NCBI GenBank assembly: GCA_009841265.1 | Contig: VXMB01000014.1 | Location: forward strand, 353,490-417,489 | Length of the DNA stretch: 64,000 bases | Reading direction: 5' to 3' | DNA from: Gemmatimonadota bacterium | GTDB taxonomy: Bacteria > JAAXHH01 | Shown here: one piece after another, positions 12,351-52,450 of the stretch | How positions within the stretch are numbered: the first letter of the stretch is position 1 | Layout of the letters: each line of letters starts with the position of its first letter | Notes under the pieces: model-generated | What the model was told of the DNA's origin: nothing | The model's database searches: none | What the model saw: only the letters and a program-made list of their open reading frames with translations | Position numbers and translations under genes: made by a program

Positions 12351-12351
12351 A

Positions 12352-13996: not shown

Positions 13997-14029
13997 CCCC
14001 GGCGCCCGAGCGCGCCGAGGCGTTTTATT
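13997..14029. terminator. putative bidirectional rho-independent terminator
   Basis: Stem ccccggcgc / gcgccgagg (8 of 9 bp) with loop ccgagc. Followed by cgttttatt on the plus strand and ctttcgtctttc on the minus strand. It lies at the 3' end of the lpxH-like gene. Confidence 0.35.
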
Positions 14030-14774: not shown

Positions 14775-14984
14775 AACAGGATCAGACCCGAAAAAGCACG
14801 GCAACCAAACCAGCCGGTTTTCCGGGCAACAGGGAGTATAACTTTGGATTGACAATTCACCTCGCGTGCGTTAATTAAAATACAATAGGCCATACATTTA
14901 ACTAACGAAATCTTTGGTCGCAATCGCAGTGCGCGAATGCCTCGGATTCGAGGCGTCGGCGTGGTGAACCGGAGAAGAGAACAG

Positions 14985-15407
14985 ATGGCGAGAAAGAAGC
15001 TGTCGTCGTTGACGGACCTGGAAATCGACATCATGAATGTCGTCTGGCGGCTGGGACGGGCGACGGTGCGCCAGATCGTCGATTCGCTTCGAAACCAGCG
15101 TCCCCTGGCGTACACCACGGTACAGACGGTCCTGTCCATACTCACTCAGAAGGGCGTGGTCCGGTATACCCGAGAAGGCCGGGCCTATGTCTACACCGCC
15201 ATCCTGAAACCCGAGGGCGTGCGCCGGGAAACCGTCCGGGCTGTCGTGGACAAGCTGTTCGCCGGATCGCCGCAGTCCCTGGTGCTGCACCTGATCGAAT
15301 CGGACGCGTTGACCGCGGAAGAAGCCGAGAGCCTGCGCAAACTGCTGGACCGGATGGCCTCGGAGTCGGTGGCGTCGGAGTCGAATCCGGAGGCATCGGA
15401 TGCTTGA
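14985..15407 (+). CDS. BlaI/MecI/CopY-family transcriptional repressor
   Basis: MARKKLSSLTDLEIDIMNVVW…TTVQTVLSILTQKG winged helix. It overlaps the downstream M56 sensor gene by 8 nt. Confidence 0.8.
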   Translation: MARKKLSSLTDLEIDIMNVVWRLGRATVRQIVDSLRNQRPLAYTTVQTVLSILTQKGVVRYTREGRAYVYTAILKPEGVRRETVRAVVDKLFAGSPQSLVLHLIESDALTAEEAESLRKLLDRMASESVASESNPEASDA

Positions 15408-17286
15408 TGCCGTCCACGCCATAGGCCTCTTCGAGCGGTTCGGCCGGGAGGTCGTGGACCTGCTGTGGCTTCCGAGCCTTGAAGCGTTGCTTCTCGGCGT
15501 CATGGTCTGGGCCCTGCTATTCGTGAACCCGGGATGCCCAGCCAGGATTCGGCACTTCCTCTGGCTGCTGGTTCTGGCCAAACCGCTGCTGACCCTCGTG
15601 CTGCCCTGGCATGGACCGTTCGAGATCCCGTGGGCGTCGATGGCGAGCCATGGATTGCCCGCCGCGGGCGATCACAACGCCCTGGCATCCGGAGTCTACG
15701 CCGTCGCGGGGCTGGTCTGGATGGGTTTCGCCGGTTTCGGCCTCTACCGCATCGGTTCATCGGTCATCACCATGTCCCGGCGAAGGCGGCGGTCCGTTCC
15801 GGTCGCCGTCCCCCGGGTAAGCGCGCTATTCGATCGGTGCCTGGCCGAATCGGGCTTGAAGCGCAGAGTGGCCCTGAGGGTCTCCGACGAGTTCGAGGTA
15901 CCCGTGCTGATCGCCGCCGGGCGCCCCGCCGTCGTGATTCCCTCCTGGTGCATCCTGGAACTTTCCAGCGCGGAGCTGAGGCAGGTCCTGCTTCATGAGC
16001 TGGCCCACTATGCCCGCCGGGATCACCTTACGGTCTTCCTGGTCCAGTTCTGCAGGTTCTTTTTCTTCTTCCACCCCGCGGTATGGTACGCCGCGTACCG
16101 GGCCGGGATCGAGGCGGAGCGGGCCTGCGACGCGGACGTCGTCCGTGTTTCCAGGCAGCCGGAGCGCTATGCATCCACCCTGTTGAAAGTTGCTGCGGGC
16201 AGGGTCCGGACGCACTGGCAGGCCGCCCTCGAACTGGCGCGGTCGGCCTCCATGGCGGCCCAGCGTATCCGGGACGTGCTCGGTTCGACGGTGAACCGGA
16301 AGGACCGCGCCTTCTTCCCGCTGCTGGCCGCCAGTATCTGCTCGCTGCTCGCGGTCATGCCCCTGTTGCGGCCGGCGGTCGAGGCCCCCGGAGACGTGCC
16401 TGTACCGCCACGAACGAGCATGCCCGGCGAACCGACGGTTCCCGGCCGGGTCGATACGGCGCCCGGTACGCAGCATCACGAAGATCCGGGCCCTGAGACG
16501 CAGGTCGCGCGGGTGGCGGACACGCCCCTGCCGCCGGACCGTCCGGCCAGTCGCAGGACCATGGTAGACGGCCGGCCCGCACCGCGCAGATCCATGGCCG
16601 CCAGGATGATAAAACCGGCGGTACCCCCTCGAGAAGGGATAGTCGAATCCACGAAGCGTGACCGGATCAACCCCGCCGTGCTCGGCCACGCCGCCCCACC
16701 GGTCATCCCGGATCGGACTTTGTCCGCGGGGAACCAGGCCAGGCAGAGACGTATCGAGGTGCAGGGCGTGGGCCGGACCGGCAATGAGCTGTTCGATCCC
16801 GGTACGGTCTCCCTGAGCGCCGGCTATTTCATTACACCGACCCACCAGTTCGGAGGCGTGTTTTCGATTCGAAAGCCCAACGATACGGAAGCATTTGACG
16901 ATACCCGGCGGCCTTCCGGCGCCCCGTACGGCGGTTCCCTCCTTCGGGCCCGGAGACTGGCCGGTTTCGGGACCTCGTCGGCCCAGGGAACGGTGCTTGA
17001 AACCTCAGAGGATGAGCAGGCCGAACGGATCACCCGGATCGGCGCCTTCTACCGGTACAATCTGCTCGTTCCGGGCGATTCCTTCACGCCTTTCTTCGGA
17101 TGGGGCGCCGGCCTGGAGATCAGGCCGCAGAACCGGAACATGACCATGATCGACGCCGGGGTCGGGCTGCGTTACTTCTGGGAACGGCACGTCGCCGTGG
17201 TCGTACAGGCATCCTACCGGAAGGAACTGGATGTCATCTCTCGTCCTTACCCTGAGATGACGCTGGGCTTTTCCGCGATCTTCTAG
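15400..17286 (+). CDS. BlaR1-like M56 peptidase/signal transducer with a proline-rich spacer and a C-terminal beta-barrel-like domain
   Basis: 628 aa. N-terminal TM helices and an HELAHYARRDH (HExxH) M56 motif. Pro-rich region at about aa 330-420. The C-terminus shows alternating hydrophobic strands and ends …LGFSAIF. Confidence 0.7.
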   Translation: MLDAVHAIGLFERFGREVVDLLWLPSLEALLLGVMVWALLFVNPGCPARIRHFLWLLVLAKPLLTLVLPWHGPFEIPWASMASHGLPAAGDHNALASGVYAVAGLVWMGFAGFGLYRIGSSVITMSRRRRRSVPVAVPRVSALFDRCLAESGLKRRVALRVSDEFEVPVLIAAGRPAVVIPSWCILELSSAELRQVLLHELAHYARRDHLTVFLVQFCRFFFFFHPAVWYAAYRAGIEAERACDADVVRVSRQPERYASTLLKVAAGRVRTHWQAALELARSASMAAQRIRDVLGSTVNRKDRAFFPLLAASICSLLAVMPLLRPAVEAPGDVPVPPRTSMPGEPTVPGRVDTAPGTQHHEDPGPETQVARVADTPLPPDRPASRRTMVDGRPAPRRSMAARMIKPAVPPREGIVESTKRDRINPAVLGHAAPPVIPDRTLSAGNQARQRRIEVQGVGRTGNELFDPGTVSLSAGYFITPTHQFGGVFSIRKPNDTEAFDDTRRPSGAPYGGSLLRARRLAGFGTSSAQGTVLETSEDEQAERITRIGAFYRYNLLVPGDSFTPFFGWGAGLEIRPQNRNMTMIDAGVGLRYFWERHVAVVVQASYRKELDVISRPYPEMTLGFSAIF

Positions 17287-17326: not shown

Positions 17327-18778
17327 ATGGATCATCATTCCCGAAGAGCGGTCCCGGCGCTCATCATCGCCGGCGGCGCGGGCGTGCGCCTTCAGGCGAT
17401 AACCGGCCCGGTGCCCAAACCTCTGTTGCACCTATGCGGCGTGCCGTTGATCAAGCGGATCATATTGACGGCCGCGCGTGCCGGCGTAACGCGCTTCGTG
17501 ATCGTAACGGGGTACGAGGCGGACCGATTTCACGAGGTCCTCTCCAACGATCCCGGTCTGGACGCCTGCCGGATTGAATGGGTGCACAACGAACGGTGGG
17601 ATCTGCCCAACGGGGTTTCCGCCCTGGCCGCCCGCTCCCGCCTGGCGGAACCGTTCGTGCTGCTCATGGCCGATCACCTCTTCGAGCAACGGACGCTGGA
17701 GCGTCTGCTCGAGGAACCGGTGGCCGAAGGGGAGTGCCTGCTCGCCGTCGACCGGAAAATCGACCGCGTGTACGACGTGGACGACGCGACCAAGGTCGAA
17801 GTGCGCGGGGATAAAGTGGTGCGCATCGACAAGGAACTGCAAGCGTTCAACGCGGTGGACACCGGCATGTTCCTCTGTACGCCGGCCCTGTTCGAAGCCC
17901 TCGATGCGGTGAACGGGCCGGAGGGATGCGCGTTGAGCGACGGCATCCGGGCGCTTGCCGCGGAAGGGCGGATGCGCGCCTTCGACGTGGGCGATGGTTA
18001 CTGGCAGGACGTGGATACGCCCGAGATGCTGGCCCAAGGCGAGAAGGCCCTGCTGGGACGCCTCGTAAAACCCACAGACGGATGGGTATCCCGGCATATC
18101 AACCGGCCGGTTTCAACCCGCATCAGCCGATGGCTGGTCCGGACGCCGGTCACGCCGAACATGGTGACCCTGGCCACCTTCCTTACCGGCCTGGCCGGGG
18201 CGTGGTTCGTGCTGGACGGCGCCTACTGGCCGGTGCTGCTGGGCGCGTTGCTTTTCCAGGTTTCGTCCATCCTCGACGGCTGCGACGGGGAGGTGGCGGT
18301 ACTGACCTTCCGTGAATCGAAATACGGCTCGTGGCTCGACACGATCACGGACAACCTGACCTACCTGGCGTTCTTCGCGGCCGTGGTCTGGGCCTACGCG
18401 GGCGGCTCCGGGGAAACGGTAATCCGGTACCTCGGCCTGGGATCCGTCGCCGTGGTGGCCGCCTCGATACTCGTAATGTACTATTATCTGCTGCAGACCG
18501 GGGGGAGCGGCAGCCTGGTCCGGTTCAACCGGGCCTTCGAAGCGCACGCCGTCGGACGGCGGCGCCATCTCTTCTCCAGGCTGCTCAACCTGTTCAGGAT
18601 GATGGCCAAACGAGATTTCTTTACCATGCTGCTGCTGTGTTTCGCCGCCCTCGACCTGCTGAACTGGATGTTCTGGACCGTTACGGCCGGCGGCCTGGCC
18701 ATGGGCCTGGCCATATTCATTTCGACGGGGAGGCTGCTGGCGCGGGACCGGGCGGTGGCCGGGGACATGCGCTCATGA
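17327..18778 (+). CDS. bifunctional sugar/alcohol-phosphate nucleotidyltransferase :: CDP-alcohol phosphotransferase (IPCT/DIPPS-like)
   Basis: 483 aa. N-terminus ALIIAGGAGVRL (NTP-transferase G-x-G-x-R-L). C-terminal TM domain with DGCDGEVAVLTFRESKYGSWLDTITD, matching D-x2-DG-x2-A(R)-x8-G-x3-D-x3-D with R replaced by V. HINRPVSTRISRWL precedes TM1. Confidence 0.7.
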   Translation: MDHHSRRAVPALIIAGGAGVRLQAITGPVPKPLLHLCGVPLIKRIILTAARAGVTRFVIVTGYEADRFHEVLSNDPGLDACRIEWVHNERWDLPNGVSALAARSRLAEPFVLLMADHLFEQRTLERLLEEPVAEGECLLAVDRKIDRVYDVDDATKVEVRGDKVVRIDKELQAFNAVDTGMFLCTPALFEALDAVNGPEGCALSDGIRALAAEGRMRAFDVGDGYWQDVDTPEMLAQGEKALLGRLVKPTDGWVSRHINRPVSTRISRWLVRTPVTPNMVTLATFLTGLAGAWFVLDGAYWPVLLGALLFQVSSILDGCDGEVAVLTFRESKYGSWLDTITDNLTYLAFFAAVVWAYAGGSGETVIRYLGLGSVAVVAASILVMYYYLLQTGGSGSLVRFNRAFEAHAVGRRRHLFSRLLNLFRMMAKRDFFTMLLLCFAALDLLNWMFWTVTAGGLAMGLAIFISTGRLLARDRAVAGDMRS

Positions 18779-19548
18779 GCGGATTGCTGGACCGTGCAAG
18801 GGGACTCTTCGCCCTCCGGCTCAGGAAGGACTTCAACTTCCGCAGGGCCCAGGAAACGGTCCCCGCGTTACGCTGGCTGAAGCCGCGCAAAGGCGAGCGT
18901 ATTCTCGATATCGGCTGCGGAGAAGGGACCTATGACTACCGGCTCGCCCTTCGGGGCGCCCGGGTGTTCGGTTTCGACCTGGACCGGAACCAGTTGCGCC
19001 GTGCCCAGGCCCACCACAAGACGCCCTTCACGGGTTTCGTCTGCGCCCATTCGGACGCGTTCCCCCTTCGGTCGGGGCAGTTCGACACGGTCATGAGCCT
19101 GTGTGTCTTCGAGCACCTGCCGGACGACAGGCAGACGCTGCGTGAGATGTGGCGCGTGTTGCGGCCCGGGGGGCGCATCCTGTTGACCCTGGACAGCCTG
19201 AGCCTCGAGGTGATCCGAGAGTCCTGGCGCGACGAGCACCGGAAACGCCATAGCGTCCTGCAGTTCTATACGCACCCGTCGGTCGGCTCGTTGCTGGAAG
19301 CCTGTGGATTCAGACTGATCAGGCACAGGTACCTGCTTCGTTCCCGGCTGGACCTGGCGTTGATCCGGCTGAGCTACGCCACGGAGCGCATGCACGCGGT
19401 CCCGGCGGCGTTGATCCGGTTGGGACTGGTATCGGCCGGCAGGATGGTATCCGCGGTCTTCAACCTGTTCACCGGGAACCAACGGGGATGGACCCTGTTG
19501 ATCGAAGCGGACAGGATGACCCCCGGTCCGGTGAATCCCCCATCATGA
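18775..19548 (+). CDS. class I SAM-dependent methyltransferase
   Basis: Starts MSGLLDRARG, overlapping the upstream stop as ATGA. ILDIGCGEGTY motif I and VFGFDLD motif II. The ORF-track start at 18331 is an out-of-context extension. Confidence 0.7.
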   Translation: MSGLLDRARGLFALRLRKDFNFRRAQETVPALRWLKPRKGERILDIGCGEGTYDYRLALRGARVFGFDLDRNQLRRAQAHHKTPFTGFVCAHSDAFPLRSGQFDTVMSLCVFEHLPDDRQTLREMWRVLRPGGRILLTLDSLSLEVIRESWRDEHRKRHSVLQFYTHPSVGSLLEACGFRLIRHRYLLRSRLDLALIRLSYATERMHAVPAALIRLGLVSAGRMVSAVFNLFTGNQRGWTLLIEADRMTPGPVNPPS

Positions 19549-21071
19549 CGCGTACCCAGGAACAGCCGGCTCCGACCCGGTCCCGGTCCGACGCATCGAC
19601 GATCGCCCGGGGCGCGGCCGTCAATTTCATTGGAACGGTAGCGCGGCTGATCAAGTCCGTGTCGTTCATCGTCCTAACGCGGCTGTTCGGCGCCGAGATC
19701 TTTGGGTTGTACATGCTCGGGTGGACCATCGTGGACCTCGTGTCGAAGGTCGGCCAGTTCTCGCTGGACAAGGGGCTGGTCAATTTCATCCCGCGCATGC
19801 GCGAGGACGGGGAAACGGAGGCCATCCACCGGACCATCGCGCAGGCCCTGGGCGTGGGCCTGCTGCTGAGCGCAGGGATCGGCGCCGCGCTCTATGCCGC
19901 TGCGGCTCCCCTGGCGGACGGCCTGCTCGACAAGCCCCGGCTTGCCGGCATGCTTCGGCTGCTGGCGGTCGGCCTGCCGCTCATCGCCCTGACCCAGATT
20001 ATCCTGGGCGTCACCCGGGCGCATAAGGTCATGAAGCACGACGCCATGGTCCGGGGCGCGGTCGAGCCGCTGGTGCTGTTCGGGGCGGCCTGTGTCCTGT
20101 TCTACCTGGGCTGGCGCACCTACGGCATCGCCGCGGCCCACCTGGCCGCGCTGGCCTGCGGCCTGCTATACGCCGTTTACGTGTTTACGAGGTTCTATTC
20201 CTGGCGGGCCTGTCTTGCCCACCTGCGCGCACTGCGGGCCGTCACCCCGCTGACCCGCTTCTCGCTGCCGGTCATGGGCTATGAACTGGTCTACATGTTC
20301 ATGATCCGCCTGGACGTGCTCATGGTCGGCTACTTTCTGCCGGCCGCACAGGTGGGGGTTTACGTGATCGCGGTCGAAATCGCCCTGGTGACCAAGAAGG
20401 TCCGGCAGTGGTTCGACCCCGTTTTCAGTCCCATCGTGGCCGAACTGAATCACCGCAACGACCTGCGGCGGCTGGAGCTCAACCTGCGGCTGGTCACCCG
20501 GTGGGTGCTGACCATCGGCCTGGCGTTCCTCTGCGTGGTGTCGCTGGTCGGTAACGAACTGCTTGGACTTTTCGGATCCGAATTCGTCGCGGGATTCATG
20601 ACGATGGTCGTCCTGGCCATGAGCCAGGTCGTCTACGCCGCCATGGGTTCGGGCGATACCGTGCTCATCATGTCGGGCCGGCCCTGGCTGAATCTCGTGA
20701 ATACGGTCGCGGTCGTGGCGGTCAATTTCGTCCTGAACCTGTGGCTGATACCGGCCCTGGGCATCCTGGGCGCGGCCCTGGGAACGCTGGCGGCTTTCGG
20801 GCTGTTGACGCTGATCCGCCTGGCCGAAGTGTATCACCTGTTCCGGATCCTTCCCCTGTCCTGGCGCATCCTGAAGCCATGCGCCGCAGCGGTCCCCGCC
20901 TTCGCGTGCGCTTACCTGGCGGGCGTCTACGCGCCGGATATCCCGTGGCTTCGCATGGCCGCGCTGCCCACGATCTTCCTGGCCGCCTACCTCGGCGTCC
21001 TGGGTCTCCTGGGGTTGGAAGAGGATGACCGGGTCGCCCTTCGACGCTTGCGCGGACGGGGCCGACCATGA
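19545..21071 (+). CDS. Wzx/MOP-superfamily polysaccharide or lipid flippase-like membrane protein
   Basis: About 508 aa from MTRTQEQP. Roughly 12-14 TM helices. The start overlaps the methyltransferase stop as ATGA. Confidence 0.65.
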   Translation: MTRTQEQPAPTRSRSDASTIARGAAVNFIGTVARLIKSVSFIVLTRLFGAEIFGLYMLGWTIVDLVSKVGQFSLDKGLVNFIPRMREDGETEAIHRTIAQALGVGLLLSAGIGAALYAAAAPLADGLLDKPRLAGMLRLLAVGLPLIALTQIILGVTRAHKVMKHDAMVRGAVEPLVLFGAACVLFYLGWRTYGIAAAHLAALACGLLYAVYVFTRFYSWRACLAHLRALRAVTPLTRFSLPVMGYELVYMFMIRLDVLMVGYFLPAAQVGVYVIAVEIALVTKKVRQWFDPVFSPIVAELNHRNDLRRLELNLRLVTRWVLTIGLAFLCVVSLVGNELLGLFGSEFVAGFMTMVVLAMSQVVYAAMGSGDTVLIMSGRPWLNLVNTVAVVAVNFVLNLWLIPALGILGAALGTLAAFGLLTLIRLAEVYHLFRILPLSWRILKPCAAAVPAFACAYLAGVYAPDIPWLRMAALPTIFLAAYLGVLGLLGLEEDDRVALRRLRGRGRP

Positions 21072-22357
21072 GATTCAGCGTAGTCCTGTTCGCGGATACG
21101 GACGCCCTGGCGGCCGGAGCCGGCCGGTCGATTTACGGCATATCGCTGCTGGAGCGACACCTCCGGGTCTTCGCATCCCTGGGGGCCCGGCAGGTCACGG
21201 TCGTCGGACCTTCGCCCGGGCGGGGATCGAACGTCCGGGAATCGAATATCCGGGTCGAGGGATTCGACGATCGCTGGTTCCGGGAACTGGACGCCGTCCA
21301 TTACGTACGTGCGGACGAAAGCCCCACCCGGTGGCTGCCCGGGAAGGACGAAAGGGCCCTGGTCATGGACGCCGGCCACCTGTACGACCCTCGGGTTCTA
21401 CGGGCCATGATCGACGGCAGCCCGAACCGGAGAGCCGAGGACTCGTCGGTCAGGGAATCCTGCAGGCTGCTGGTGGCGGACGCGGACCTCCTTGCAGGGA
21501 TCACGACGTCCTGGACCGGCTCCGAGTCGCTGTGGTCCGCGCTGGACTCGGTGCAGGAATCGGCCTGCCCGGTATTCGACCTGCGCGAAATGGATCCCTA
21601 TATCGTGGATCTGAGACGAAGTCTGCCCCCCTGGTGGCTGGTCGTCGATTCGGACCTGAAGATCCGCCGTGCGGAGGCCCTGCTGACCGACGCCGCGCAG
21701 AAGGGCACGCTGGATTTTCCCGCGGAGTTCATCCATCCGCCCCTTGAAAACCTGCTTACGAAATGGATTTCGGCCAGTACTGTGACGCCGAACCAGGTAA
21801 CCACCCTCTCTATACTGCTCGCCTTTCTGACCACCGGTCTTCTGGCCGCGGGACAGATGGGTACGGGATACCTGGCCGCCGGACTGGCGATCGCCTTTAT
21901 CGTCGGGGTGCTGGACGGTGTCGACGGCAAGTTGGCCCGCGTGACGGTGCGGTGCACCCGGTTCGGGGACCGTTACGAACATATCCTTGATGTGGTCTGG
22001 GAACTGACCTGGTATTGGGCACTGGGGTGGATGCTCAGTGCCGGCGGCGAGGCGGTCGGTCCTTTTGTGCTCGCCACGGTGATCACGTTATTTTACCTGT
22101 TTGACAAGGCGGCCACGGGGATGTTCAAGTCCAGGCAGGGCATAGAACTGTTTGACTATGCGCCCGTGGATCGCTTCTTTCGCCGTATCGGCGCCCGGCG
22201 AAATACGAATGTCCTGTTGCTGCTCGCGGGTATGGCGGTCGGCATGCTGGAGGAAGCGTTCACCTGCGTGGCGATCTGGACGGTGATCACGGCGGCGTTC
22301 CATTGGACGCGGGCGATCTGGCTGCTGTCGCAACCGTCGCCTGCCGACAGGTCCTGA
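21068..22357 (+). CDS. CDP-alcohol phosphotransferase with a divergent N-terminal cytoplasmic (nucleotidyltransferase-like?) domain
   Basis: 429 aa. The C-terminal TM domain has a canonical DGVDGKLARVTVRCTRFGDRYEHILD motif. The N-terminal 230 aa show no clear G-x-G-T-R motif. The start overlaps the flippase stop. Confidence 0.65.
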   Translation: MRFSVVLFADTDALAAGAGRSIYGISLLERHLRVFASLGARQVTVVGPSPGRGSNVRESNIRVEGFDDRWFRELDAVHYVRADESPTRWLPGKDERALVMDAGHLYDPRVLRAMIDGSPNRRAEDSSVRESCRLLVADADLLAGITTSWTGSESLWSALDSVQESACPVFDLREMDPYIVDLRRSLPPWWLVVDSDLKIRRAEALLTDAAQKGTLDFPAEFIHPPLENLLTKWISASTVTPNQVTTLSILLAFLTTGLLAAGQMGTGYLAAGLAIAFIVGVLDGVDGKLARVTVRCTRFGDRYEHILDVVWELTWYWALGWMLSAGGEAVGPFVLATVITLFYLFDKAATGMFKSRQGIELFDYAPVDRFFRRIGARRNTNVLLLLAGMAVGMLEEAFTCVAIWTVITAAFHWTRAIWLLSQPSPADRS

Positions 22358-22646
22358 TTCCGCCGGTCGAGAGAACTAAGGGAACCGGGTACGCTCGCCG
22401 GATGTGCCACTTCCGTGCATGGACCGGCCATCGCTATTTGTTGGATCAATAGGTGGACAGATGCGTCTAATATACTTGAGAAAGCGAGCATTTACGATTG
22501 CGGTGGGTCGACGCGTGAAGCGAGTCGGCGATTACGGCGACCACAGTGAGTCGGCGACTACATCGATTATGGCGGGTCGGCGACCACAGATATCACGGCG
22601 CGTCGACCCGTACGGTGAGAAGACCCCTGCGAGAAGCGGAGGCATC

Positions 22647-24050
22647 GTGTTTCGTGTTCTGGCTCACATCCTGGCGGTATTGCTGATCGCGGGGCCGGTA
22701 TTCGCGCAGAGCCCGAACGGACCCGTCCAGGCCGACCAGGATGACCAGGCCGTCCGGTCCGTCCAGGCTGTCCGGATGACGCTGGAACAATGCGTGGATC
22801 GGGCGCTGCGGGTCAGTCCGGATATCGAACAGGCTGTCCTTACCGTCGAAGGCCTGGAAGCCAGGTTGAGCGAAGCGAGATTCGCGGGCATCACACCCCG
22901 GTTGCAATGGACCAATATCTTCGGTCCCGCGCCGGGCATAGAAGGCGACACGGAACAGATCGAGACCATCCGGAGCGACCTGACCGATCTGGGCGTTTTC
23001 TCACGCACGCAGATCGAACTGGTTCAGCCACTGTACACCTTCGGGAAGCTCAGTAACGCGAAGAAGGCGGCCGGGTACGGTCTCGAAGCGGGCGAGGCGG
23101 CCGTGGAATCCCGGAAGTTCGACGTGGCGTTCCAGGTGAAGAAGCTGTTCTACGGACTCGTACTGGCGGGGGAACTCAGGGACATCATCCTGGATAGCGT
23201 AGAAAAGGTACAGGAGGCCCGGGACCGCGTAAACGAGATGATCGAGGAGGACTCGGAAGACGTCGGCCAGAACGACCTGTTGAAAATCGATGTCTTCGAA
23301 TTCGAGGTGCAGCAGAGCCGGGCGCGGGCCGAGAAGTCGATCGAAATGGGGAGGGCGGCGCTGAAGACCCTGCTCGAAATAGACCGCTCCGTTGATTTCG
23401 ATATCGTCCATACAGCCGCGGAGATCGAACCGGCGGACCTCGAAGAACTGGACGATTATATAGAACGGGCGAAGAACCGGCGGTACGACATCCGGCAGCT
23501 GAGGGCCGGAGTGCTGGCCCGCCGGGCGCTGCTGAAGGTGGCCAGGAGCGACTTCTACCCCCAGATCGCCCTGGCGGGATCGCTCCAGTGGGGCATCGCA
23601 CCGCACAGGCCGGAGCTCGACAATCCTTTTCTCAGGGACGAGTTCAATTTCCTTCGCGGCGGTGCCGTGATTACCTTGCGCCAGAACTTCAACTTCGGCC
23701 TGACCCGCGCGAAGTACATTGCCCGCAAGGTGGAACTGGAAGCGCTGGTGAGCAAGGAATCCCAGGCGATGAGCGCGGTCGCGCTGCAGGTGGAGCAGAC
23801 CTACCGCGACGTGATCGAGGCCCGTACCAACGTGGTCAACAGCGACCGGGCCCTTCGCTCCGCCAGGGCATGGCTGACATCGGCTCAACTGGGTTTCGAT
23901 GTTACCGGAGACAGTTCGGAACTGCTGGACGCGTTTACCGCGCATGCGAAGATGCAACATGCGTACCGGCAGTCGCTGTACCAGTACCGGGTTTCGCTGG
24001 CCGAACTCGGTCATGTGACCGGCAACGGGATTTACAATGGGCGGCGCTGA
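22647..24050 (+). CDS. TolC-family outer-membrane efflux protein
   Basis: GTG start 5 nt after GGAGG. Signal peptide VFRVLAHILAVLLIAGPVFAQ. Two repeated coiled-coil/barrel halves typical of OEP family members. Confidence 0.7.
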   Translation: MFRVLAHILAVLLIAGPVFAQSPNGPVQADQDDQAVRSVQAVRMTLEQCVDRALRVSPDIEQAVLTVEGLEARLSEARFAGITPRLQWTNIFGPAPGIEGDTEQIETIRSDLTDLGVFSRTQIELVQPLYTFGKLSNAKKAAGYGLEAGEAAVESRKFDVAFQVKKLFYGLVLAGELRDIILDSVEKVQEARDRVNEMIEEDSEDVGQNDLLKIDVFEFEVQQSRARAEKSIEMGRAALKTLLEIDRSVDFDIVHTAAEIEPADLEELDDYIERAKNRRYDIRQLRAGVLARRALLKVARSDFYPQIALAGSLQWGIAPHRPELDNPFLRDEFNFLRGGAVITLRQNFNFGLTRAKYIARKVELEALVSKESQAMSAVALQVEQTYRDVIEARTNVVNSDRALRSARAWLTSAQLGFDVTGDSSELLDAFTAHAKMQHAYRQSLYQYRVSLAELGHVTGNGIYNGRR

Positions 24051-24083: not shown

Positions 24084-25070
24084 ATGGGAATGAACCATAG
24101 GCGTGGGGAGGCGGGTTTGGGACGTGGTACATCGGCGCGCAAGGCGCGGTGCACGCCGGCGTACAAGGTGCAGAGCACGCCGGCAAGCAGAGCGCGGGGT
24201 TGGCCGGCCGGCAGGGCGTTCGGATTGCTGGCGGGCGCGGGCCTGCTGATCTGCGCCGCGTTCATCGATCCGTCTTCCGTCCTTCGCACGGACTCGGAGC
24301 CACAGGTGCTGACGGCCCCAGAGTCCAGGACGGCCTGGACGGTTTGGCCGCGGACCGCCTCGTTCTTTCCGGGTGTCGCGCGGGCGGACCATGCGGACCA
24401 TGCGGGCTATGCGGACTATGCGTCCCCTCCCCAGCGGGGCGATGGCCAACGAAAGTCCATCACGATCGAAGCCTTCGACGATTCGGCCCCGGGCGGCTTT
24501 CCCCTGACCTGGAAAGCCTGGCGGGGCGACGACGACCTGGCCCGCAGTTTGTACACGATACGGGAGGAGAAGGGCAACCGGTATCTCCACGCGGCAGACG
24601 ACGGCTCCTCCGTCATCATTCTCAAGCAAGTCAATGAATGGGATGCGAACGAATACCCGGTGCTGTCCTGGCGATGGAGGGCGACGGTCCTGCCCGAAGA
24701 CGGCGATGAACGCATCCGATCCAAAAACGACAGTTCCGTGGCCGTATACGTGGTCCTGGACCAGAACTTCATCGGCGTGCCCAAGACCCTGAAATATGTC
24801 TGGAGCACCACCGTGCCGGTCGGTACCCATTACCGCCGCGAAGGTATCGGCCGCCCCCACGTGATCGTACTCGAGACCGGAAAGGAGAAACTCGGACAGT
24901 GGGTCGAGGAGTCGGTCGACGTGCATGCGGACTATGTCCGGATCTTCGGGAAGAAGCCGCCCAGGAAAGCCGTCGGGATCGGCATTCTGACGGATGGCAA
25001 CGCGACGGGAACGGATTCCAGGGGAGATTACGACGACTTCGTGGTTCATCGCCGGGACTCCGGGTCCTGA
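24084..25070 (+). CDS. DUF3047-like secreted/membrane-anchored protein
   Basis: 328 aa. Hydrophobic N-terminal anchor. The C-terminal about 200 aa (FPLTWKAWRGDD…VLSWRWRATVLPEDGDE…YVVLDQNF) resembles the DUF3047 family. Assigned from memory only. Confidence 0.45.
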   Translation: MGMNHRRGEAGLGRGTSARKARCTPAYKVQSTPASRARGWPAGRAFGLLAGAGLLICAAFIDPSSVLRTDSEPQVLTAPESRTAWTVWPRTASFFPGVARADHADHAGYADYASPPQRGDGQRKSITIEAFDDSAPGGFPLTWKAWRGDDDLARSLYTIREEKGNRYLHAADDGSSVIILKQVNEWDANEYPVLSWRWRATVLPEDGDERIRSKNDSSVAVYVVLDQNFIGVPKTLKYVWSTTVPVGTHYRREGIGRPHVIVLETGKEKLGQWVEESVDVHADYVRIFGKKPPRKAVGIGILTDGNATGTDSRGDYDDFVVHRRDSGS

Positions 25071-25104
25071 TCCGGCCTGCAGCAAGAAAGGATGGAGGTG
25101 GGAA

Positions 25105-25704
25105 ATGCATGTGAATCGCCGTGCGGTCCGCCGCCTGGGACGCTTTACCGCCTGGGCTGCGGTGTCGCTGCTGGCTTTCGGGAGTTACGCGCAGGAATAC
25201 TCGCCCATCGAGACGCTGAAGCAGCGGGACGCCGCGCTACGCGCCCTGGACGGGGCCGCCACCGAAGCGGCAATGGACAGCCTGGTGCGCCATGCCGTCG
25301 TCTCCGGGTTCGATTTCGAACGGCACAGCCGCATTTCACTCGGCAGGCACTGGCGGGAGCGGACGGACACCGAGCGGGAGGAGTTCGTTTCGGTCCTGCG
25401 CAGGTGGACCGAAAGCCGGGCACTGGACAAGCTGCGCAAGCGATCGGACAGGACGACGTACGACGGGGAAGAAACCCGGGGCAGCCGGTCGCTGGTGAGA
25501 ACGACGCTATGGTACAAGGGCACTAAAACGCTCGTCGATTACAAGATGGAGCTCAAAGCGGGCGAATGGCTCATCTATGACATGGTGATCGACGGGGCGA
25601 GTGTCGCGCTGGCCAACCGGGACGCATTCTACAAGAAGATCAGCAGGACATCCTACGACGAATTGCTCAACACCCTGCGTGCGAAAACCCTTGAAATAGA
25701 ATAG
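25105..25704 (+). CDS. MlaC/Ttg2D-family periplasmic lipid-binding protein
   Basis: Starts MHVNRRAVRRLGRFTAWAAVSLLAFGSYA (signal peptide). GGAGG RBS. Typical MlaC length and helical composition. Confidence 0.65.
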   Translation: MHVNRRAVRRLGRFTAWAAVSLLAFGSYAQEYSPIETLKQRDAALRALDGAATEAAMDSLVRHAVVSGFDFERHSRISLGRHWRERTDTEREEFVSVLRRWTESRALDKLRKRSDRTTYDGEETRGSRSLVRTTLWYKGTKTLVDYKMELKAGEWLIYDMVIDGASVALANRDAFYKKISRTSYDELLNTLRAKTLEIE

Positions 25705-25784
25705 CGAAACGAGTATACTTTCAAGCCTGTACTGTATACTCGAATTGAGTAATGTAACGATGTCCTATGTTTTTAGGAGACGGA

Positions 25785-27227
25785 ATGGCGGCGACTGCCT
25801 ACAATCGATGTATCTTTTTCCTCGTCGACGGCGCACGGGAAGACGTCATGCGGAAAATGATCGAGGCCGGCGAACTTCCGTCCCTGCGGCGATACATCCT
25901 CGACCGGGGAGATTACCGGAAAGCGGTGACCTCGTTCCCGTCCACGACCGGTCCGGCCCATGTGCCCTTTTTGACCGGCTGTACGCCCGGTACGTGCAAT
26001 CTCCCCGGCATCCGCTGGTTCGACCGGTCCCAGCCGGAGGGGCTTACCCATTTCCGGCAGGCGCGCAGTTACGTGGGACCGGGTGGACTTTATATCGACA
26101 GCGATCTTAGGGACGGTATCCACACCATCTTCGAATATTTCGAACGCCCGGCGGGGGTGTTCAGCCTGGTGAACAAGGGGTTGGGCATATTCGAAAACCG
26201 GACGTTGCTGACCAGGAACTGGTACCTGTATTACGCCCATTTATCCGGCCGGTGGCAGGTCATGGACGCCGCGGCCTGGAGGTACATCGACCGGGCCGTC
26301 GACCGGGGCGTGGATTTCCTGTCGGTCGTATTCCCGGCGGTGGACGAATACTCCCATTATACCGATCCGTTTTCGGACACCACGTTGGAGGCCTACCGGG
26401 CATTCGACCGGGGATTCGGCGGGCTGGCGGAGCGGCTTCAGCAGCTGAACATGCTGGACGACACGCTTCTCGTGGTCTCCAGCGATCATGGCCTGACCTC
26501 CACCCATACGCATTTCGAGCTATGGTCCTTTCTCGACGAAATCGGATTCAATACGCTGTACTATCCCCGGATCCTGCGCGGTGGATGCGACGCGGCAATG
26601 ATGGTCTCGGGCAACGGCATGGCGCATATCTACCTGAAGAAGGGCGAAACCTGGGAAGAAAGGCCTTCATACGATGAGATCCGCGCATTGGGGGAAACCG
26701 ATCCCATCGAGGCCCTGCTCGAACAGGAGGCGGTAGACCTGGTGGCGGCGACCCGGGAGGACTCGGTCATCGTCTGCGGGCGCCGGGGGATCAGTGAAAT
26801 CAGGGAGATGCCCGGCGGTATCGGGTACCGGGTGCTCGAGGGCAAGGATCCTTTCGGCTACGGCGGCATGCCGGCCGAAGCGTCCCATGAGCAGATGCTC
26901 TCCGCCACGTACGACTCGGACTATCCCGACGCGCTTTACCAACTGCTGCGCGTCTTCGGTTCGCCGCGGTCCGGAGACATGATCGTCAGCGCCCGAAAGG
27001 GCTACGATCTGAGATTCCGGCATGAACATCCCGAGCACAAGTCGACCCACGGTTCATTGCATCGCGACCATATGCACGTGCCTTTGATGATGAACACGGA
27101 CATTGCGGCGGAATGCGTCCGCACCGTGGACGTGTTCCCCGCCATGCTGAACCTGACGGGACGTTCCGTCAGGGGTACCATAGACGGCAGAGATTCCGTC
27201 ACCGCCGCCACGCGCGCGGTGGCGTAG
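25785..27227 (+). CDS. alkaline-phosphatase-superfamily phosphodiesterase/nucleotide pyrophosphatase-like enzyme
   Basis: 481 aa from MAATAYNRCIFFLVDGARED (metal-binding D-G-x-R). AGGAG RBS. Type I phosphodiesterase fold signatures (SFPSTTGPAH, SSDHG). Confidence 0.65.
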   Translation: MAATAYNRCIFFLVDGAREDVMRKMIEAGELPSLRRYILDRGDYRKAVTSFPSTTGPAHVPFLTGCTPGTCNLPGIRWFDRSQPEGLTHFRQARSYVGPGGLYIDSDLRDGIHTIFEYFERPAGVFSLVNKGLGIFENRTLLTRNWYLYYAHLSGRWQVMDAAAWRYIDRAVDRGVDFLSVVFPAVDEYSHYTDPFSDTTLEAYRAFDRGFGGLAERLQQLNMLDDTLLVVSSDHGLTSTHTHFELWSFLDEIGFNTLYYPRILRGGCDAAMMVSGNGMAHIYLKKGETWEERPSYDEIRALGETDPIEALLEQEAVDLVAATREDSVIVCGRRGISEIREMPGGIGYRVLEGKDPFGYGGMPAEASHEQMLSATYDSDYPDALYQLLRVFGSPRSGDMIVSARKGYDLRFRHEHPEHKSTHGSLHRDHMHVPLMMNTDIAAECVRTVDVFPAMLNLTGRSVRGTIDGRDSVTAATRAVA

Positions 27228-27237
27228 GAGCATATTC

Positions 27238-28347
27238 ATGTCCGAACAGGTTCAGATCTCACCGGCGGTGGAACCCATCGCGCCGTCTCCCGCGCATCCC
27301 GGACCACCCGCACCGCCCGTACTGCAGCCGGACGCGGGCTATCTCGGATACGACCGCACGTTGTTGCGGCCCATGTCCTTCGCCACGAAGCTTCGCGCCT
27401 TGCTCAAATACGTTTGGGTGCGAATAAAGGGCGGACCGATGGCGGTAAACATGGAGGTGACCTACCTCTGCAACGCCACCTGCGATTTCTGTGATTACTG
27501 GAAGACGAAACGTTCGGGCAAGCTGGGCGACTACGATTACGTGGCGGCGCTTCGGAAGCTGAACCCCCTGACGGTCACCCTGACCGGCGGCGAACCCACG
27601 ATCAACAAGCAACTGCCCGAGGCGGTCAGGCGCATCAAGGAATCCCTGGGATTCGTCTACATCGGCATGGTCACCCACGGATCTCTTCTGACCGTGGAAA
27701 AGGCCATGGCCCTGTGGGATGCCGGCCTGGACCACATCTCGATTTCGTTGAATTACATCGGACGCGAACATGACGAGGAACGGGGCATCGAGGGTCTCTA
27801 CGAGCATATCACCACGCTCGTGCCCCATTTGACGGCCCGGGGGGTCAACGTGATCTTCAACACAGTGATCATGCGGGAGAACCTGGACCACGTCGTACCC
27901 ATAGCGCACCTGGCGCGTACCATGGGCGCGAAGGTTTCCTACAGCTGTTACAGCGACTTCAAGAACGGGAACGAAACCCACCTGGTGGATTCGGCCCACG
28001 CCGAACGGCTGGAGTCCGTGATCGAAGATCTGATTTATCAGAAATCACGCTTAGGGAACATCGTCAGTTCCGCCTGGTACTTGCGCCGCATTCCCGCCTA
28101 TTTCCAGGATTCCCTACCACGGTCCTGCACGGCGGCGGGCAAGTGGCTGGTGCAACTGACCCCCGACGGTGACATAAAGACCTGCGCGGAACTGCCCGTA
28201 TCGTCCGGATACGCCGACTTCAAAAAGGTCTCGAAGAAGATCGACTGCAACCGGTGCTGGTACAGTTGCCGGGGCGAGACGGAATCTTCGTTAAAGATCG
28301 GAAGGTTGCTGGAGGGCCTGGAAAGGGTCTGGAAAGCGGGCGTCTAA
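27238..28347 (+). CDS. radical SAM enzyme (C-terminal Cys-rich, SPASM/twitch-like)
   Basis: 369 aa. CNATCDFCDYW (CxxxCxxC). C-terminal cysteines CTAAG…C…CNRCWYSC. Confidence 0.7.
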   Translation: MSEQVQISPAVEPIAPSPAHPGPPAPPVLQPDAGYLGYDRTLLRPMSFATKLRALLKYVWVRIKGGPMAVNMEVTYLCNATCDFCDYWKTKRSGKLGDYDYVAALRKLNPLTVTLTGGEPTINKQLPEAVRRIKESLGFVYIGMVTHGSLLTVEKAMALWDAGLDHISISLNYIGREHDEERGIEGLYEHITTLVPHLTARGVNVIFNTVIMRENLDHVVPIAHLARTMGAKVSYSCYSDFKNGNETHLVDSAHAERLESVIEDLIYQKSRLGNIVSSAWYLRRIPAYFQDSLPRSCTAAGKWLVQLTPDGDIKTCAELPVSSGYADFKKVSKKIDCNRCWYSCRGETESSLKIGRLLEGLERVWKAGV

Positions 28348-52449: not shown

Positions 52450-52450
52450 C

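What the first reader, a model, noticed from the sequence alone, without database searches (positions are those of the whole stretch)
17327..18778. IPCT/DIPPS-like fusion with a non-canonical catalytic motif (conserved Arg replaced by Val)
The CDP-alcohol phosphotransferase signature reads DGCDGEVAVLTF…G-SWL-D-TIT-D. It keeps all four Asp residues and both Gly residues but has Val where the family's conserved Arg (DG-x2-A-R) sits. This could mean an altered substrate (a different CDP-alcohol or acceptor) or a different geometry for binding the phosphates.
Basis: seen in the sequence. Interest (0 to 1): 0.55.

Follow-up and report, generated by a model that had tools for sequence, protein, structure and literature searches.

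The report
Lipid-type IPCT/CDP-alcohol transferase with Val-for-Arg
This gene encodes a two-domain membrane enzyme in which a supposedly invariant arginine is a valine; the enzyme still looks active, but the change is one of several such replacements in an uncharacterised bacterial subfamily that probably makes an envelope lipid rather than the solute di-inositol-phosphate.

Summary
ORF 17327-18778 (+) encodes 483 aa: an IPCT-like cytidylyltransferase fused to a six-helix CDP-alcohol phosphotransferase. The signature reads D317-G-C-D320-G321-E-V-A324-V325...G334...D338...D342. Ungapped alignments to solved structures (4MND, AF2299, MtPgsA1) put V325 (GTA, 18299-18301) on the canonical Arg, so the register is not shifted.

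The Val is not an error. All 33 members of a monophyletic Gemmatimonadota clade have it, four Val codons are used, and dN/dS of the motif region is 0.02-0.10.

It is not unique either. The protein belongs to a bacterial "TDN" subfamily in which this position is mostly Lys or Arg. The basic residue was lost at least four or five times (V, L, Q, N, S, T, M). In the archaeal/AF2299-like "LDR[YF]" subfamily it is nearly always Arg.

The TDN subfamily also lacks the Arg after D4 that marks enzymes using inositol phosphate as acceptor. Its members are fused to, or encoded beside, lipid flippase and lipid transport genes. "DIPPS" is therefore probably the wrong label. A Kennedy-type (BEPIS-like) phospho-alcohol-to-lipid transferase fits better.

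What replaces the Arg in three dimensions could not be checked. Interest is moderate.

The parts
17327..18778 (+). F1: bifunctional IPCT-like cytidylyltransferase / CDP-alcohol phosphotransferase, 483 aa
   Evidence: ORF; Pfam domains; NCBIfam; PDB homologues; AF2 model pLDDT 90.9 and pTM 0.87; Foldseek 4MND TMt 0.86
17357..18046 (+). N-terminal cytidylyltransferase domain (residues 11-240). The GxGxR...PK nucleotide-binding motif (G17, G19, R21, P30, K31; 17375-17419) is intact
   Evidence: Pfam; G17, G19, R21 and K31 are invariant and P30 nearly invariant in 107 homologues; best structural matches are the IPCTs 4JD0 and 2XME, TMt 0.85-0.90
18062..18775 (+). C-terminal membrane domain (residues 246-483): a juxtamembrane helix, TM helices and two short helices between TM4 and TM5, consistent with the six-TM CDP-alcohol phosphotransferase fold
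   Evidence: AF2 helices 253-270, 277-295, 300-326, 332-361, 364-391, 398-409, 415-426, 429-441, 445-482; profile hits AF2299 at 8.7e-40 and 4MND at 1e-28
18275..18352 (+). CDP-alcohol phosphotransferase signature D317xxD320G321xxA324[V325]x8G334xxxD338xxxD342
   Evidence: Sequence; ungapped alignments; dN/dS of residues 300-360 is 0.02-0.10 within the clade
18299..18301 (+). Codon GTA = Val325, at the position of the canonical signature Arg
   Evidence: Val in 33 of 33 clade members; four synonymous Val codons among genomes; the sister-clade locus L001 has AAA (Lys)
18353..18355 (+). Codon AAC = Asn343, directly after catalytic D4. DIPPS, AF2299 and PIP synthases have Arg here
   Evidence: role of the Arg (R94 in MtPgsA1) from PMC6506517
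18775..19548 (+). SAM-dependent methyltransferase; its ATG overlaps the F1 stop codon (ATGA)
   Evidence: Pfam Methyltransf_11 at 7.4e-23; NCBIfam DVU_1556 family at 82 bits, below cut-off; overlap seen
19488..21071 (+). MOP/Wzx-type flippase (Polysacc_synt)
21068..22357 (+). F2: second CDP-alcohol phosphotransferase with a degenerate N-terminal domain. Its motif at 21914-21991 is DGVDGKLAR...GDRYEHILD: it keeps AR but has Glu (GAA, 21977-21979) at D3
22404..24050 (+). TolC-like outer-membrane protein (OEP)
   Evidence: found next to F1 homologues in Gemmatimonadota and Latescibacterota and within the locus in Cytophagia and KSB1
24084..25070 (+). DUF3047 protein
   Evidence: linkage conserved
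24994..25704 (+). MlaC/HpnM-like periplasmic lipid-binding protein. The true start is probably at 25105, followed by a signal-peptide-like stretch
   Evidence: Pfam MlaC; best NCBIfam hit is HpnM at 52.9 bits, below cut-off; N-terminus; linkage conserved
25767..27227 (+). Alkaline-phosphatase-superfamily phosphodiesterase (PF01663)
   Evidence: syntenic in the sister clade
27238..28347 (+). Radical SAM protein of unknown specificity
   Evidence: a homologue lies directly after F1 homologues in Nitrospira, Myxococcota and Methylomirabilales loci
14937..17286 (+). BlaI-like repressor (14937-15407) and BlaR1-like M56 sensor protease (15400-17286), directly upstream of F1 with a 40-nt gap
   Evidence: the same order is seen in the Lys-type sister clade and in all Val-clade loci

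Best explanation
F1 is a functional two-step enzyme of an uncharacterised bacterial subfamily, here called 'TDN' after the residues around the fourth Asp. Step 1 (inferred from homology): the N-terminal IPCT-like domain condenses CTP with an alcohol phosphate to give a soluble CDP-alcohol. That alcohol phosphate is most probably myo-inositol-1-phosphate or a related polyol phosphate. Step 2: the six-helix membrane domain uses its intact Asp tetrad (D317, D320, D338, D342) and bound metal to transfer the phospho-alcohol to an acceptor hydroxyl, releasing CMP. The acceptor is most likely a membrane lipid alcohol, as in the Kennedy pathway and the Rhodothermus BEPIS reaction. It is unlikely to be inositol-1-phosphate as in DIPP synthase. 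The product would then be flipped (MOP flippase here, a fused MprF-type flippase domain in relatives) and carried to the outer membrane (MlaC/HpnM-like protein, TolC-like OEP, DUF3047). The signature Arg is an alpha-phosphate clamp and charge compensator. In this subfamily it was already softened to Lys, and one Gemmatimonadota clade replaced it with Val and then kept the Val under selection. The Val is therefore a tolerated and maintained variant of a non-essential contact. It does not mark a new chemistry. The metals and other basic residues probably supply the charge; candidates are R329 and K332 in the TM2-TM3 loop and R411-R413 in the TM4-TM5 loop.
For: Shown:
- Domains and fold.
- An intact GxGxR...K motif and Asp tetrad across 107 homologues.
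- Val is fixed in 33 of 33 clade members with four synonymous codons, and dN/dS is 0.09-0.17 for the membrane domain and 0.02-0.10 for TM2-TM3. The catalytic core is thus the most constrained part of the protein.
- Among 197 relatives the pairs (Arg-position residue, residue after D4) are (K,N) 67, (R,R) 43, (R,N) 36, (V,N) 33, plus S, T, M and Q. No member with Arg after D4 lacks the signature Arg in this set.
- An NJ tree with Fitch parsimony gives at least four independent losses of the basic residue.
- 50%-identity representatives add N, L, Q and V variants.
- C. albicans Cho1 R133A keeps wild-type activity (PMC8727905).

Arguments for a lipid acceptor:
- N343 replaces the Arg (MtPgsA1 R94) that is conserved in enzymes using inositol phosphate and is crucial for activity (PMC6506517; alignment).
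- All 10 tested ~800-aa TDN relatives carry a C-terminal LPG_synthase_TM flippase-type domain, whereas all 5 tested ~700-aa LDR[YF] relatives carry a HAD phosphatase.
- OEP and MlaC, with DUF3047 or an MMPL transporter in many loci, are linked to F1 homologues in several phyla.
- A GT4 glycosyltransferase plus a flippase follow another homologue.
- Precedent exists for CDP-inositol plus a lipid alcohol in Rhodothermus, and a similar route is proposed for Bacteroides/Prevotella.
Against: There is no biochemical evidence for any member of this subfamily. The identity of the alcohol rests only on the cytidylyltransferase domain being closest to IPCTs. No inositol-1-phosphate synthase gene was found in the window or in six neighbour tables. 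In other CDP-alcohol transferases, replacing the Arg by Ala or Met lowered activity strongly (yeast Cpt1 and A. fulgidus DIPPS, as cited in PMC8727905). The proposed compensating residues are only weakly supported: K/R enrichment at positions 411-412 rests on 5 lineages in a gappy loop of low pLDDT, and one Val-clade member (P0022) lacks R329. Gene linkage and domain fusions suggest a lipid product but do not identify it.
Confidence: 0.6

Rival explanations
1. One reading: the Arg-to-Val change re-tunes the active site for a different CDP-alcohol donor or acceptor, or for a different way of holding the diphosphate. On this view the Val clade makes a different product from its Lys and Arg relatives.
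For: The Arg contacts the donor alpha-phosphate. Val is fixed and selectively maintained rather than drifting. A few other substitutions are fixed in the Val clade (A296L, P411R, A460G, Q473R, and A16G in the nucleotide loop). All Val-clade loci carry the extra methyltransferase-flippase-F2 module.
Against: The contacted group (CMP-phosphate) is common to all donors, so this residue is a poor determinant of specificity. The Lys-type sister clade has the same flanking genes. The methyltransferase-flippase-F2 module also occurs with Lys-type F1 (L010; shared contig lengths). The same position varies freely among K, S, T, M and N within one closely related group at >60% identity.
Confidence: 0.2
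2. The F1 membrane domain is a catalytically dead scaffold. F1 only supplies the CDP-alcohol, and the neighbouring paralogue F2, which keeps Ala-Arg but has a degenerate nucleotidyltransferase domain, does the transfer, perhaps as an F1-F2 heterodimer.
For: F2 lacks a working cytidylyltransferase motif and must obtain its CDP-alcohol elsewhere. F2 retains the signature Arg. The genes are translationally coupled in one operon. CDP-alcohol transferases are dimers.
Against: The F1 motif region has the lowest dN/dS of the protein, and all metal-binding Asp and Gly residues are invariant. No F2 was detected in the held sequence around F1 of the KSB1 Val variant or the Latescibacterota S/T variants. 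Lys-type F1 genes coexist with F2. F2 itself has Glu in place of D3.
Confidence: 0.1
3. F1 is a genuine IPCT/DIPP synthase that makes the compatible solute di-myo-inositol phosphate.
For: The best full-length hits are the IPCT/DIPPS family and the 4MND structure. Several database sources name relatives this way.
Against: The score is 241 bits against the equivalog cut-off of 580. The Arg after D4 that is tied to inositol-phosphate acceptors is Asn. No phosphatase or MIPS gene lies nearby. The HAD-phosphatase fusions that fit DIPP chemistry are confined to the LDR[YF] subfamily, while TDN relatives are fused to a lipid flippase-type domain. The genomic context is envelope lipid transport.
Confidence: 0.05
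4. The Val is a sequencing or assembly error, or the motif is mis-registered.
For: None found.
Against: Thirty-three independent sequences from many assemblies carry Val, encoded by four different codons. Alignments to three solved structures are ungapped across the motif.
Confidence: 0.01

Closest known systems
Bifunctional IPCT/DIPPS of Archaeoglobus fulgidus (AF0263, PDB 4MND; NCBIfam NF041135)
   Same: It has the same two-domain architecture and fold (Foldseek TMt 0.86, 28% identity; phmmer 2.6e-52). The cytidylyltransferase motif is intact. The DGCDGE...G...D...D core is almost identical.
   Different: The score is far below the equivalog cut-off (241 vs 580 bits). The signature Arg is Val. 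The Arg after D4 is Asn. The organism is a bacterium, and the gene neighbours are lipid flippase and transport genes, not inositol-phosphate synthase or phosphatase genes.
AF2299 (PDB 4O6M/4O6N/4Q7C), a CDP-alcohol phosphotransferase of unknown acceptor
   Same: It is the closest solved sequence to the membrane domain (profile E 8.7e-40). The TM2-TM3 loop is nearly identical (LKFMESKYGAWLD vs LTFRESKYGSWLD).
   Different: AF2299 keeps Ala-Arg and LDRY. From my recollection of the AF2299 structure paper, its N-terminal domain is a non-catalytic cytidylyltransferase-like domain. That architecture resembles the neighbouring F2, which has no detectable NTP-transferase match and lacks the PK of the motif, more than it resembles F1.
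Rhodothermus marinus IPCT + BEPIS pathway (CDP-inositol + dialkylether glycerol -> ether glycerophosphoinositol)
   Same: This is the best functional analogue: a CDP-alcohol-family enzyme that takes soluble CDP-inositol as donor and a lipid alcohol as acceptor, in a bacterium (summarised in PMC4587543, and partly from my memory of Jorge et al. 2015).
   Different: No BEPIS sequence was available to me, so homology at subfamily level is untested. In Rhodothermus the genes sit with an inositol-phosphate synthase gene, which was not found here.
Putative alternative inositol-lipid cluster of Bacteroides vulgatus / Prevotella (NTP transferase + CDP-alcohol phosphatidyltransferase + HAD)
   Same: It follows the same proposed Kennedy-like logic (PMC9246714). 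An MprF-type (LPG synthase) gene is noted near those clusters, in parallel with the flippase-domain fusions seen here.
   Different: That pathway is itself unproven. Its proteins are separate rather than fused, it is linked to MIPS, and no link to OEP, MlaC or DUF3047 has been described.
PIP synthases (M. tuberculosis PgsA1 6H53, R. salmoninarum 5D92) and eukaryotic CPT1/CEPT1
   Same: They share the catalytic signature and metal-dependent mechanism. They provide the structural assignment of the two Arg residues discussed here.
   Different: Their donor is CDP-diacylglycerol (PIPS), or they have ten TM helices (CPT/CEPT). All keep the signature Arg.

Membership tests
CDP-alcohol phosphotransferase superfamily (Pfam PF01066) | Profile match above the curated threshold | tested here: met
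   29.3 bits against a cut-off of 22, residues 276-383
CDP-alcohol phosphotransferase superfamily (Pfam PF01066) | Signature residues D1xxD2G1xxA...G2xxxD3xxxD4 (four Asp, two Gly, Ala) | tested here: met
   D317, D320, G321, A324, G334, D338 and D342 are present and aligned without gaps to 4MND, AF2299 and 6H53
CDP-alcohol phosphotransferase superfamily (Pfam PF01066) | Signature Arg after the Ala ('absolutely conserved' according to PMC4634129) | tested here: not met
   Val325 in this protein. The subfamily has K, R, V, S, T, M, N, Q or L here
CDP-alcohol phosphotransferase superfamily (Pfam PF01066) | Six-TM fold with the motif on TM2 and TM3 | tested here: met
   AF2 model with pLDDT 90.9; helices 300-326 and 332-361 carry the motif; TMt is 0.86 to 4MND and 0.73-0.77 to AF2299
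CDP-alcohol phosphotransferase superfamily (Pfam PF01066) | Transfer of a substituted phosphate from a CDP-alcohol with release of CMP | not testable with these tools
   Needs an enzyme assay. Purifying selection on the catalytic region (dN/dS 0.02-0.10) argues only indirectly for activity
IPCT/DIPPS (NF041135 equivalog) | Score at or above the curated equivalog cut-off | tested here: not met
   241.5 bits against 580
IPCT/DIPPS (NF041135 equivalog) | Functional IPCT-type cytidylyltransferase domain | tested here: inconclusive
   The GxGxR...PK motif is intact and the closest structures are IPCTs 4JD0 and 2XME. Specificity for inositol-1-phosphate cannot be read from sequence
IPCT/DIPPS (NF041135 equivalog) | Arg directly after D4, conserved in CDP-alcohol transferases that take inositol phosphate as acceptor (R94 of MtPgsA1) | tested here: not met
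   Asn343 here; 4MND has LDRF and AF2299 has LDRY
IPCT/DIPPS (NF041135 equivalog) | Pathway context: inositol-1-phosphate synthase and a DIPP phosphatase | tested here: not met
   No MIPS or HAD domain in any of the ~55 window ORFs scanned, nor in the neighbour tables of relatives. The rest of the genome could not be searched
Kennedy-type / BEPIS-like CDP-alcohol:lipid phosphotransferase | Soluble CDP-alcohol donor made by a dedicated cytidylyltransferase | tested here: inconclusive
   Fusion to an intact cytidylyltransferase domain implies this. Not demonstrated
Kennedy-type / BEPIS-like CDP-alcohol:lipid phosphotransferase | Lipid acceptor / lipid product | tested here: inconclusive
   Indirect only. 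All 10 tested long TDN relatives are fused to LPG_synthase_TM, against 5 of 5 LDR[YF] relatives fused to HAD. There is linkage to MlaC/HpnM-like, OEP, MMPL and MOP flippase genes
Kennedy-type / BEPIS-like CDP-alcohol:lipid phosphotransferase | Sequence relationship to characterised BEPIS | not tested

The most novel reading that the evidence does not exclude
The TDN subfamily and its linked genes (MprF-type or MOP flippase; MlaC/HpnM-like carrier; TolC-like OEP; DUF3047 or MMPL; radical SAM) could form an undescribed pathway. It is widespread in Gemmatimonadota, Latescibacterota, Zixibacteria, Nitrospirota, Myxococcota and Bacteroidota. It would build an inositol- or polyol-phosphate lipid by a Kennedy-like CDP-alcohol route and export it to the outer membrane. 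Within it, the Gemmatimonadota Val clade would be a natural demonstration that the 'absolutely conserved' signature Arg of CDP-alcohol phosphotransferases can be dispensed with. The charge may have been relocated to the TM4-TM5 loop (R411-R413), or F1 (Arg lost) and F2 (D3 replaced by Glu) may work as a heterodimer.
Probability: 0.3. Interest if true: 0.65.

Novelty: new variant of a known kind. Interest (0 to 1): 0.42.

Why it matters
Structural papers describe the eight signature residues of CDP-alcohol phosphotransferases as invariant, and they serve as a search pattern for phospholipid synthases. A clade that has kept Val in place of the Arg under strong purifying selection shows this contact is not universally required. 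It complements the single laboratory observation that Cho1 R133A stays active. Motif-based searches such as DX2DGX2AR would miss these enzymes. The analysis also separates two groups that automatic annotation lumps together as 'IPCT/DIPPS'. One has LDR[YF] and is fused to phosphatases. The other has TDN and is fused or linked to lipid flippases and outer-membrane lipid transport genes. The second group points to an unstudied envelope phospholipid pathway in several poorly cultured phyla. This is a testable lead, not an established finding.

Tried and rejected
1. Register shift: rejected. HMMER alignments to 4MND, AF2299 and 6H53 are ungapped across the motif.
2. Sequencing error: rejected by 33 sequences and four Val codons.
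3. 'Val arose because the extra paralogue F2 took over': rejected as a strict link. I first saw that the Lys-type sister locus L001/L002 lacks the methyltransferase-flippase-F2 module. However, L010 has Lys-type F1 together with the module. The KSB1 Val variant L036 shows no F2 within the held sequence.
4. Compensating basic residue: searched in two ways. The first was fixed differences between the Val clade and the Lys sister clade, which gave P411R and Q473R. The second was K/R enrichment across five non-basic lineages, which gave positions 411-412 and weakly 329. The result is suggestive only. The loop is gappy, has low pLDDT, and Lys-type Latescibacterota also carry basic residues there.
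5. Viewing the Arg site in the AlphaFold model: not possible, because no coordinates are exposed.
6. Looking for an inositol-1-phosphate synthase gene: none in the window or in six neighbour tables.
7. Literature on AF2299, the DVU_1551/1556 families and BEPIS: nothing that characterises this subfamily.
8. Organism names for the fused and variant representatives: all come from uncultured MAGs.
9. The radical SAM neighbour: only generic matches (PqqE, MoaA, PTO1314 family below cut-off), so no function could be assigned.
Full report
**1. What is there**

The window is GC-rich (about 63%). The closest named relatives of its genes come from Gemmatimonadota MAGs. ORF 17327-18778 (+) encodes a 483-aa protein, called F1 here. 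Pfam finds a nucleotidyltransferase domain (residues 11-240) and a CDP-alcohol phosphatidyltransferase domain (276-383, 29.3 bits against a cut-off of 22). The NCBIfam equivalog model for bifunctional IPCT/DIPPS aligns end to end (E 1.6e-71) but scores only 241.5 bits against a cut-off of 580.

Against solved structures the best hits are A. fulgidus IPCT/DIPPS 4MND (2.6e-52), AF2299 (1e-26) and the stand-alone IPCTs 4JD0 and 2XME (about 2.5e-24). An AlphaFold2 model built on 107 homologues is confident (pLDDT 90.9, pTM 0.87). Foldseek ranks 4MND first (TM 0.86 normalised to the target, rmsd 3.5 A). The N-terminal half matches the IPCTs with TM 0.85-0.90.

**2. The observation**

The DNA at 18275-18355 translates to D317 G C D320 G321 E V A324 V325 L T F R E S K Y G334 S W L D338 T I T D342 N343. 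The HMMER alignments to three solved structures have no gaps across this stretch:
- 4MND: DGCDGEIARASLKMSKKGGYVDSILDRF
- AF2299: DGCDGEIARLKFMESKYGAWLDGVLDRY
- M. tuberculosis PgsA1: DMLDGAMARERGGGTRFGAVLDATCDRIS

V325 (codon GTA, 18299-18301) therefore sits exactly where the signature Arg sits. The register is not shifted. The four Asp, two Gly and the Ala are all in place.

**3. Is the Val real and maintained?**

A search of 5.8 billion proteins returned 570 relatives at E <= 1e-10, of which the best 120 were listed. All sequences of the closest clade carry Ala-Val. In the combined alignment that clade has 33 members at 68-96% identity and is monophyletic in an NJ tree.

In seven genomes the Val codon is GTA, GTG, GTC (four times) or GTT. 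A sister-clade locus (L001) has AAA (Lys), which is two nucleotide changes away.

Pairwise dN/dS within the clade is 0.09-0.17 for the membrane domain. For residues 300-360 (TM2-loop-TM3) it is 0.02-0.10, the most constrained part of the protein. The cytidylyltransferase motif residues G17, G19, R21 and K31 and the catalytic residues D317, D320, G321, G334 and D342 are invariant in 107 homologues; D338 is nearly so. This is the pattern of a working enzyme, not of a decaying domain or an assembly error.

**4. How unusual is it?**

In 197 aligned relatives I tabulated two positions together: the residue at the Arg position and the residue directly after D4. The counts were (K,N) 67, (R,R) 43, (R,N) 36 and (V,N) 33, plus S, T, M and Q with N.

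Two subfamilies emerge:
- **LDR[YF] subfamily.** This includes 4MND and AF2299. It has Arg after D4 and kept the signature Arg in all 43 cases.
- **TDN subfamily.** F1 belongs here. It has Asn after D4 and tolerates K (most common), R, V, S, T, M and Q at the signature position.

Fitch parsimony on the NJ tree gives at least four independent non-basic lineages:
- the Gemmatimonadota Val clade;
- a group labelled Latescibacterota or Gemmatimonadota in which closely related sequences (>60% identity) carry K, S, T, M or N;
- a Cytophagia lineage with Gln;
- a KSB1 lineage with Val.

A profile search of 1.84 billion 50%-identity representatives found 2,989 proteins at E <= 1e-30. Among the top 150 it added Asn, Leu, Gln and another Val variant. 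In that sample 71 of the 73 members with Arg after D4 keep the signature Arg and the other two have Lys. So the Val is a genuine departure from the textbook motif, but it is one endpoint of a relaxation that affects the whole subfamily.

**5. What the missing Arg normally does**

Clarke et al. describe the eight signature residues as absolutely conserved (PMC4634129). In M. tuberculosis PgsA1, G72 and R76 coordinate the alpha-phosphoryl group of CDP-DAG (PMC6506517). In M. jannaschii PSS the conserved Arg49, which I take to be the signature Arg, coordinates CDP-DAG and compensates the charge of its phosphates (PMC8633023).

Mutating it lowered activity in yeast Cpt1 (to Ala) and A. fulgidus DIPPS (to Met). 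In C. albicans Cho1, R133A kept wild-type activity and only R133E lost more than half; the authors suggested that neighbouring basic residues compensate (PMC8727905). The residue therefore helps rather than catalyses. It also touches the part of the donor that is common to every CDP-alcohol, which makes it an unlikely switch of substrate specificity.

**6. What the enzyme most likely does**

Grave et al. report that R94 of PgsA1, the residue directly after catalytic D93 (= D4), is conserved in CDP-alcohol transferases that use inositol phosphate. It lies next to the acceptor's phosphate and is crucial for activity. F1 and the whole TDN subfamily have Asn there, whereas DIPPS has Arg. That argues against inositol-1-phosphate as acceptor and so against DIPP synthase activity.

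Domain fusions give the same split:
- All 10 Pfam-tested relatives of about 800 aa with the TDN motif carry a C-terminal LPG_synthase_TM domain, the flippase-type membrane domain of MprF.
- All 5 tested relatives of about 700 aa with LDR[YF] carry a C-terminal HAD phosphatase. That is what a phosphorylated product such as DIPP would need.

Gene linkage agrees. In the window F1 is followed by:
- a methyltransferase, whose ATG overlaps the F1 stop as ATGA;
- a MOP flippase;
- a second CDP-alcohol transferase (F2), again with an ATGA overlap;
- a TolC-like OEP;
- DUF3047;
- an MlaC-like protein, whose best NCBIfam match is the hopanoid-associated HpnM (below cut-off);
- a phosphodiesterase;
- a radical SAM protein.

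An LpxH-like gene and a BlaI/BlaR1 pair lie upstream.

Elsewhere, OEP and MlaC flank F1 homologues in Latescibacterota, where one locus examined in detail also encodes an MMPL (HpnN-like) transporter. OEP, MlaC and DUF3047 also occur in the Cytophagia and KSB1 loci. Another homologue is followed by a GT4 glycosyltransferase and a flippase.

There is precedent for the chemistry. Rhodothermus marinus uses IPCT plus 'BEPIS' to transfer inositol phosphate from CDP-inositol to a dialkylether glycerol (summarised in PMC4587543). A similar Kennedy-like route has been proposed for Bacteroides and Prevotella (PMC9246714).

My best reading is this. F1 makes a CDP-alcohol in its N-terminal domain; inositol is the best guess, because the domain is closest to IPCTs. 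It then transfers the phospho-alcohol to a lipid, which is flipped and exported to the outer membrane. The donor alcohol, the acceptor and the export steps are inferred, not shown. No inositol-phosphate synthase gene was found in the window or in neighbour tables. The alcohol therefore remains open.

**7. Ideas tested and dropped**

I first suspected that the Val arose because the paralogue F2, which retains Ala-Arg, had taken over catalysis. The Lys-type sister locus L001/L002 lacks the methyltransferase-flippase-F2 module while keeping all other neighbours. The link does not hold, for three reasons:
- A Latescibacterota locus combines Lys-type F1 with the module (L010).
- No F2 was detected in the held sequence around the independent Val, Ser and Thr variants.

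F2 is itself non-canonical, with Glu at D3.

A search for a compensating basic residue found two fixed gains of Arg in the Val clade (P411R, Q473R). It also found K/R enrichment at positions 411-412 in five non-basic lineages (0.58-0.72 against 0.12-0.13). These positions lie in a gappy loop of low confidence, and some Lys-type sequences are also basic there. I treat this as a lead only. I could not inspect the modelled active site because no coordinates are available to me.

**8. Verdict**

The label 'IPCT/DIPPS-like' is right for ancestry and fold but probably wrong for function. The proposed meaning of the Val (altered substrate) is not supported. The better-supported view is a tolerated and selectively maintained loss of an auxiliary phosphate contact, in a subfamily where that contact was already relaxed. 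The finding is a new natural variant of a known enzyme kind. The wider and more interesting lead is the uncharacterised, apparently lipid-directed TDN subfamily and its outer-membrane transport neighbourhood.

Noticed in passing
window 21068-22357 (motif 21914-21991; codon 21977-21979): The paralogue F2 keeps Ala-Arg but has Glu instead of the third signature Asp (GDRYEHILD). The Glu is conserved in Gemmatimonadota, Latescibacterota and Zixibacteria relatives, while more distant relatives have Asp. Its N-terminal domain has no detectable NTP-transferase match and lacks the PK of the nucleotide-binding motif.
   Followed up: partly
window 18775-22357 compared with L001 7841-8320 and L002: The three-gene module of methyltransferase, MOP flippase and F2 lies between F1 and the OEP gene in the window and in all Val-clade loci. 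It is absent from an otherwise syntenic Lys-type sister locus, which has only a 480-bp spacer there. This is an indel of a whole module.
   Followed up: yes
relatives P0276-P0359 (about 800 aa) and P0347-P0381 (about 700 aa): Domain fusions divide the family cleanly. TDN-motif proteins are fused to an MprF-type LPG_synthase_TM domain. LDR[YF]-motif proteins are fused to a HAD phosphatase, or to DUF4202/HD.
   Followed up: yes
window 15400-17286: The BlaR1-like M56 protein has a C-terminal extension of about 330 residues with no Pfam match. It ends in ...TLGFSAIF, which resembles the C-terminal signature of outer-membrane beta-barrels. The BlaI/BlaR1 pair directly precedes F1 in both the Val and the Lys clades, which suggests envelope-signal control of the operon.
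   Followed up: no
window 27238-28347; L025, L027, L028, L047: A radical SAM gene (36-45% identical in the aligned segments) lies immediately downstream of F1 homologues in Nitrospira, Myxococcota and Methylomirabilales loci that lack the OEP and MlaC genes. F1 and this radical SAM protein may be the conserved functional core. Its specificity is unknown.
   Followed up: partly
window 28344-34160 (-): A 1,938-aa protein has two sets of UvrA interaction and DNA-binding domains plus ABC ATPase modules, i.e. a tandem-duplicated UvrA-like protein. It is conserved at the same place in the sister clade (1,956 aa).
   Followed up: no
window 12352-13758 (+): An ORF encodes collagen triple-helix repeats plus a Big_2 domain. 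It lies in the lowest-GC stretch of the window (0.574 in 12001-14000). The same position is not occupied in the syntenic sister locus, so it may be an insertion.
   Followed up: no
window 35203-36246, 37545-38690, 52412-53434; also L003 and L086: Several GFO/IDH/MocA oxidoreductases (the inositol-dehydrogenase family) occur in the window and near F1 homologues in other phyla. This may be coincidental or may relate to cyclitol metabolism.
   Followed up: no
L047 6667-7788 and 10001-11338: A Methylomirabilales contig carries two F1-type genes a few kilobases apart, with motifs ...FDFWGDNV and ...LDVVGDGL. This shows further diversification of the residue after D4.
   Followed up: no
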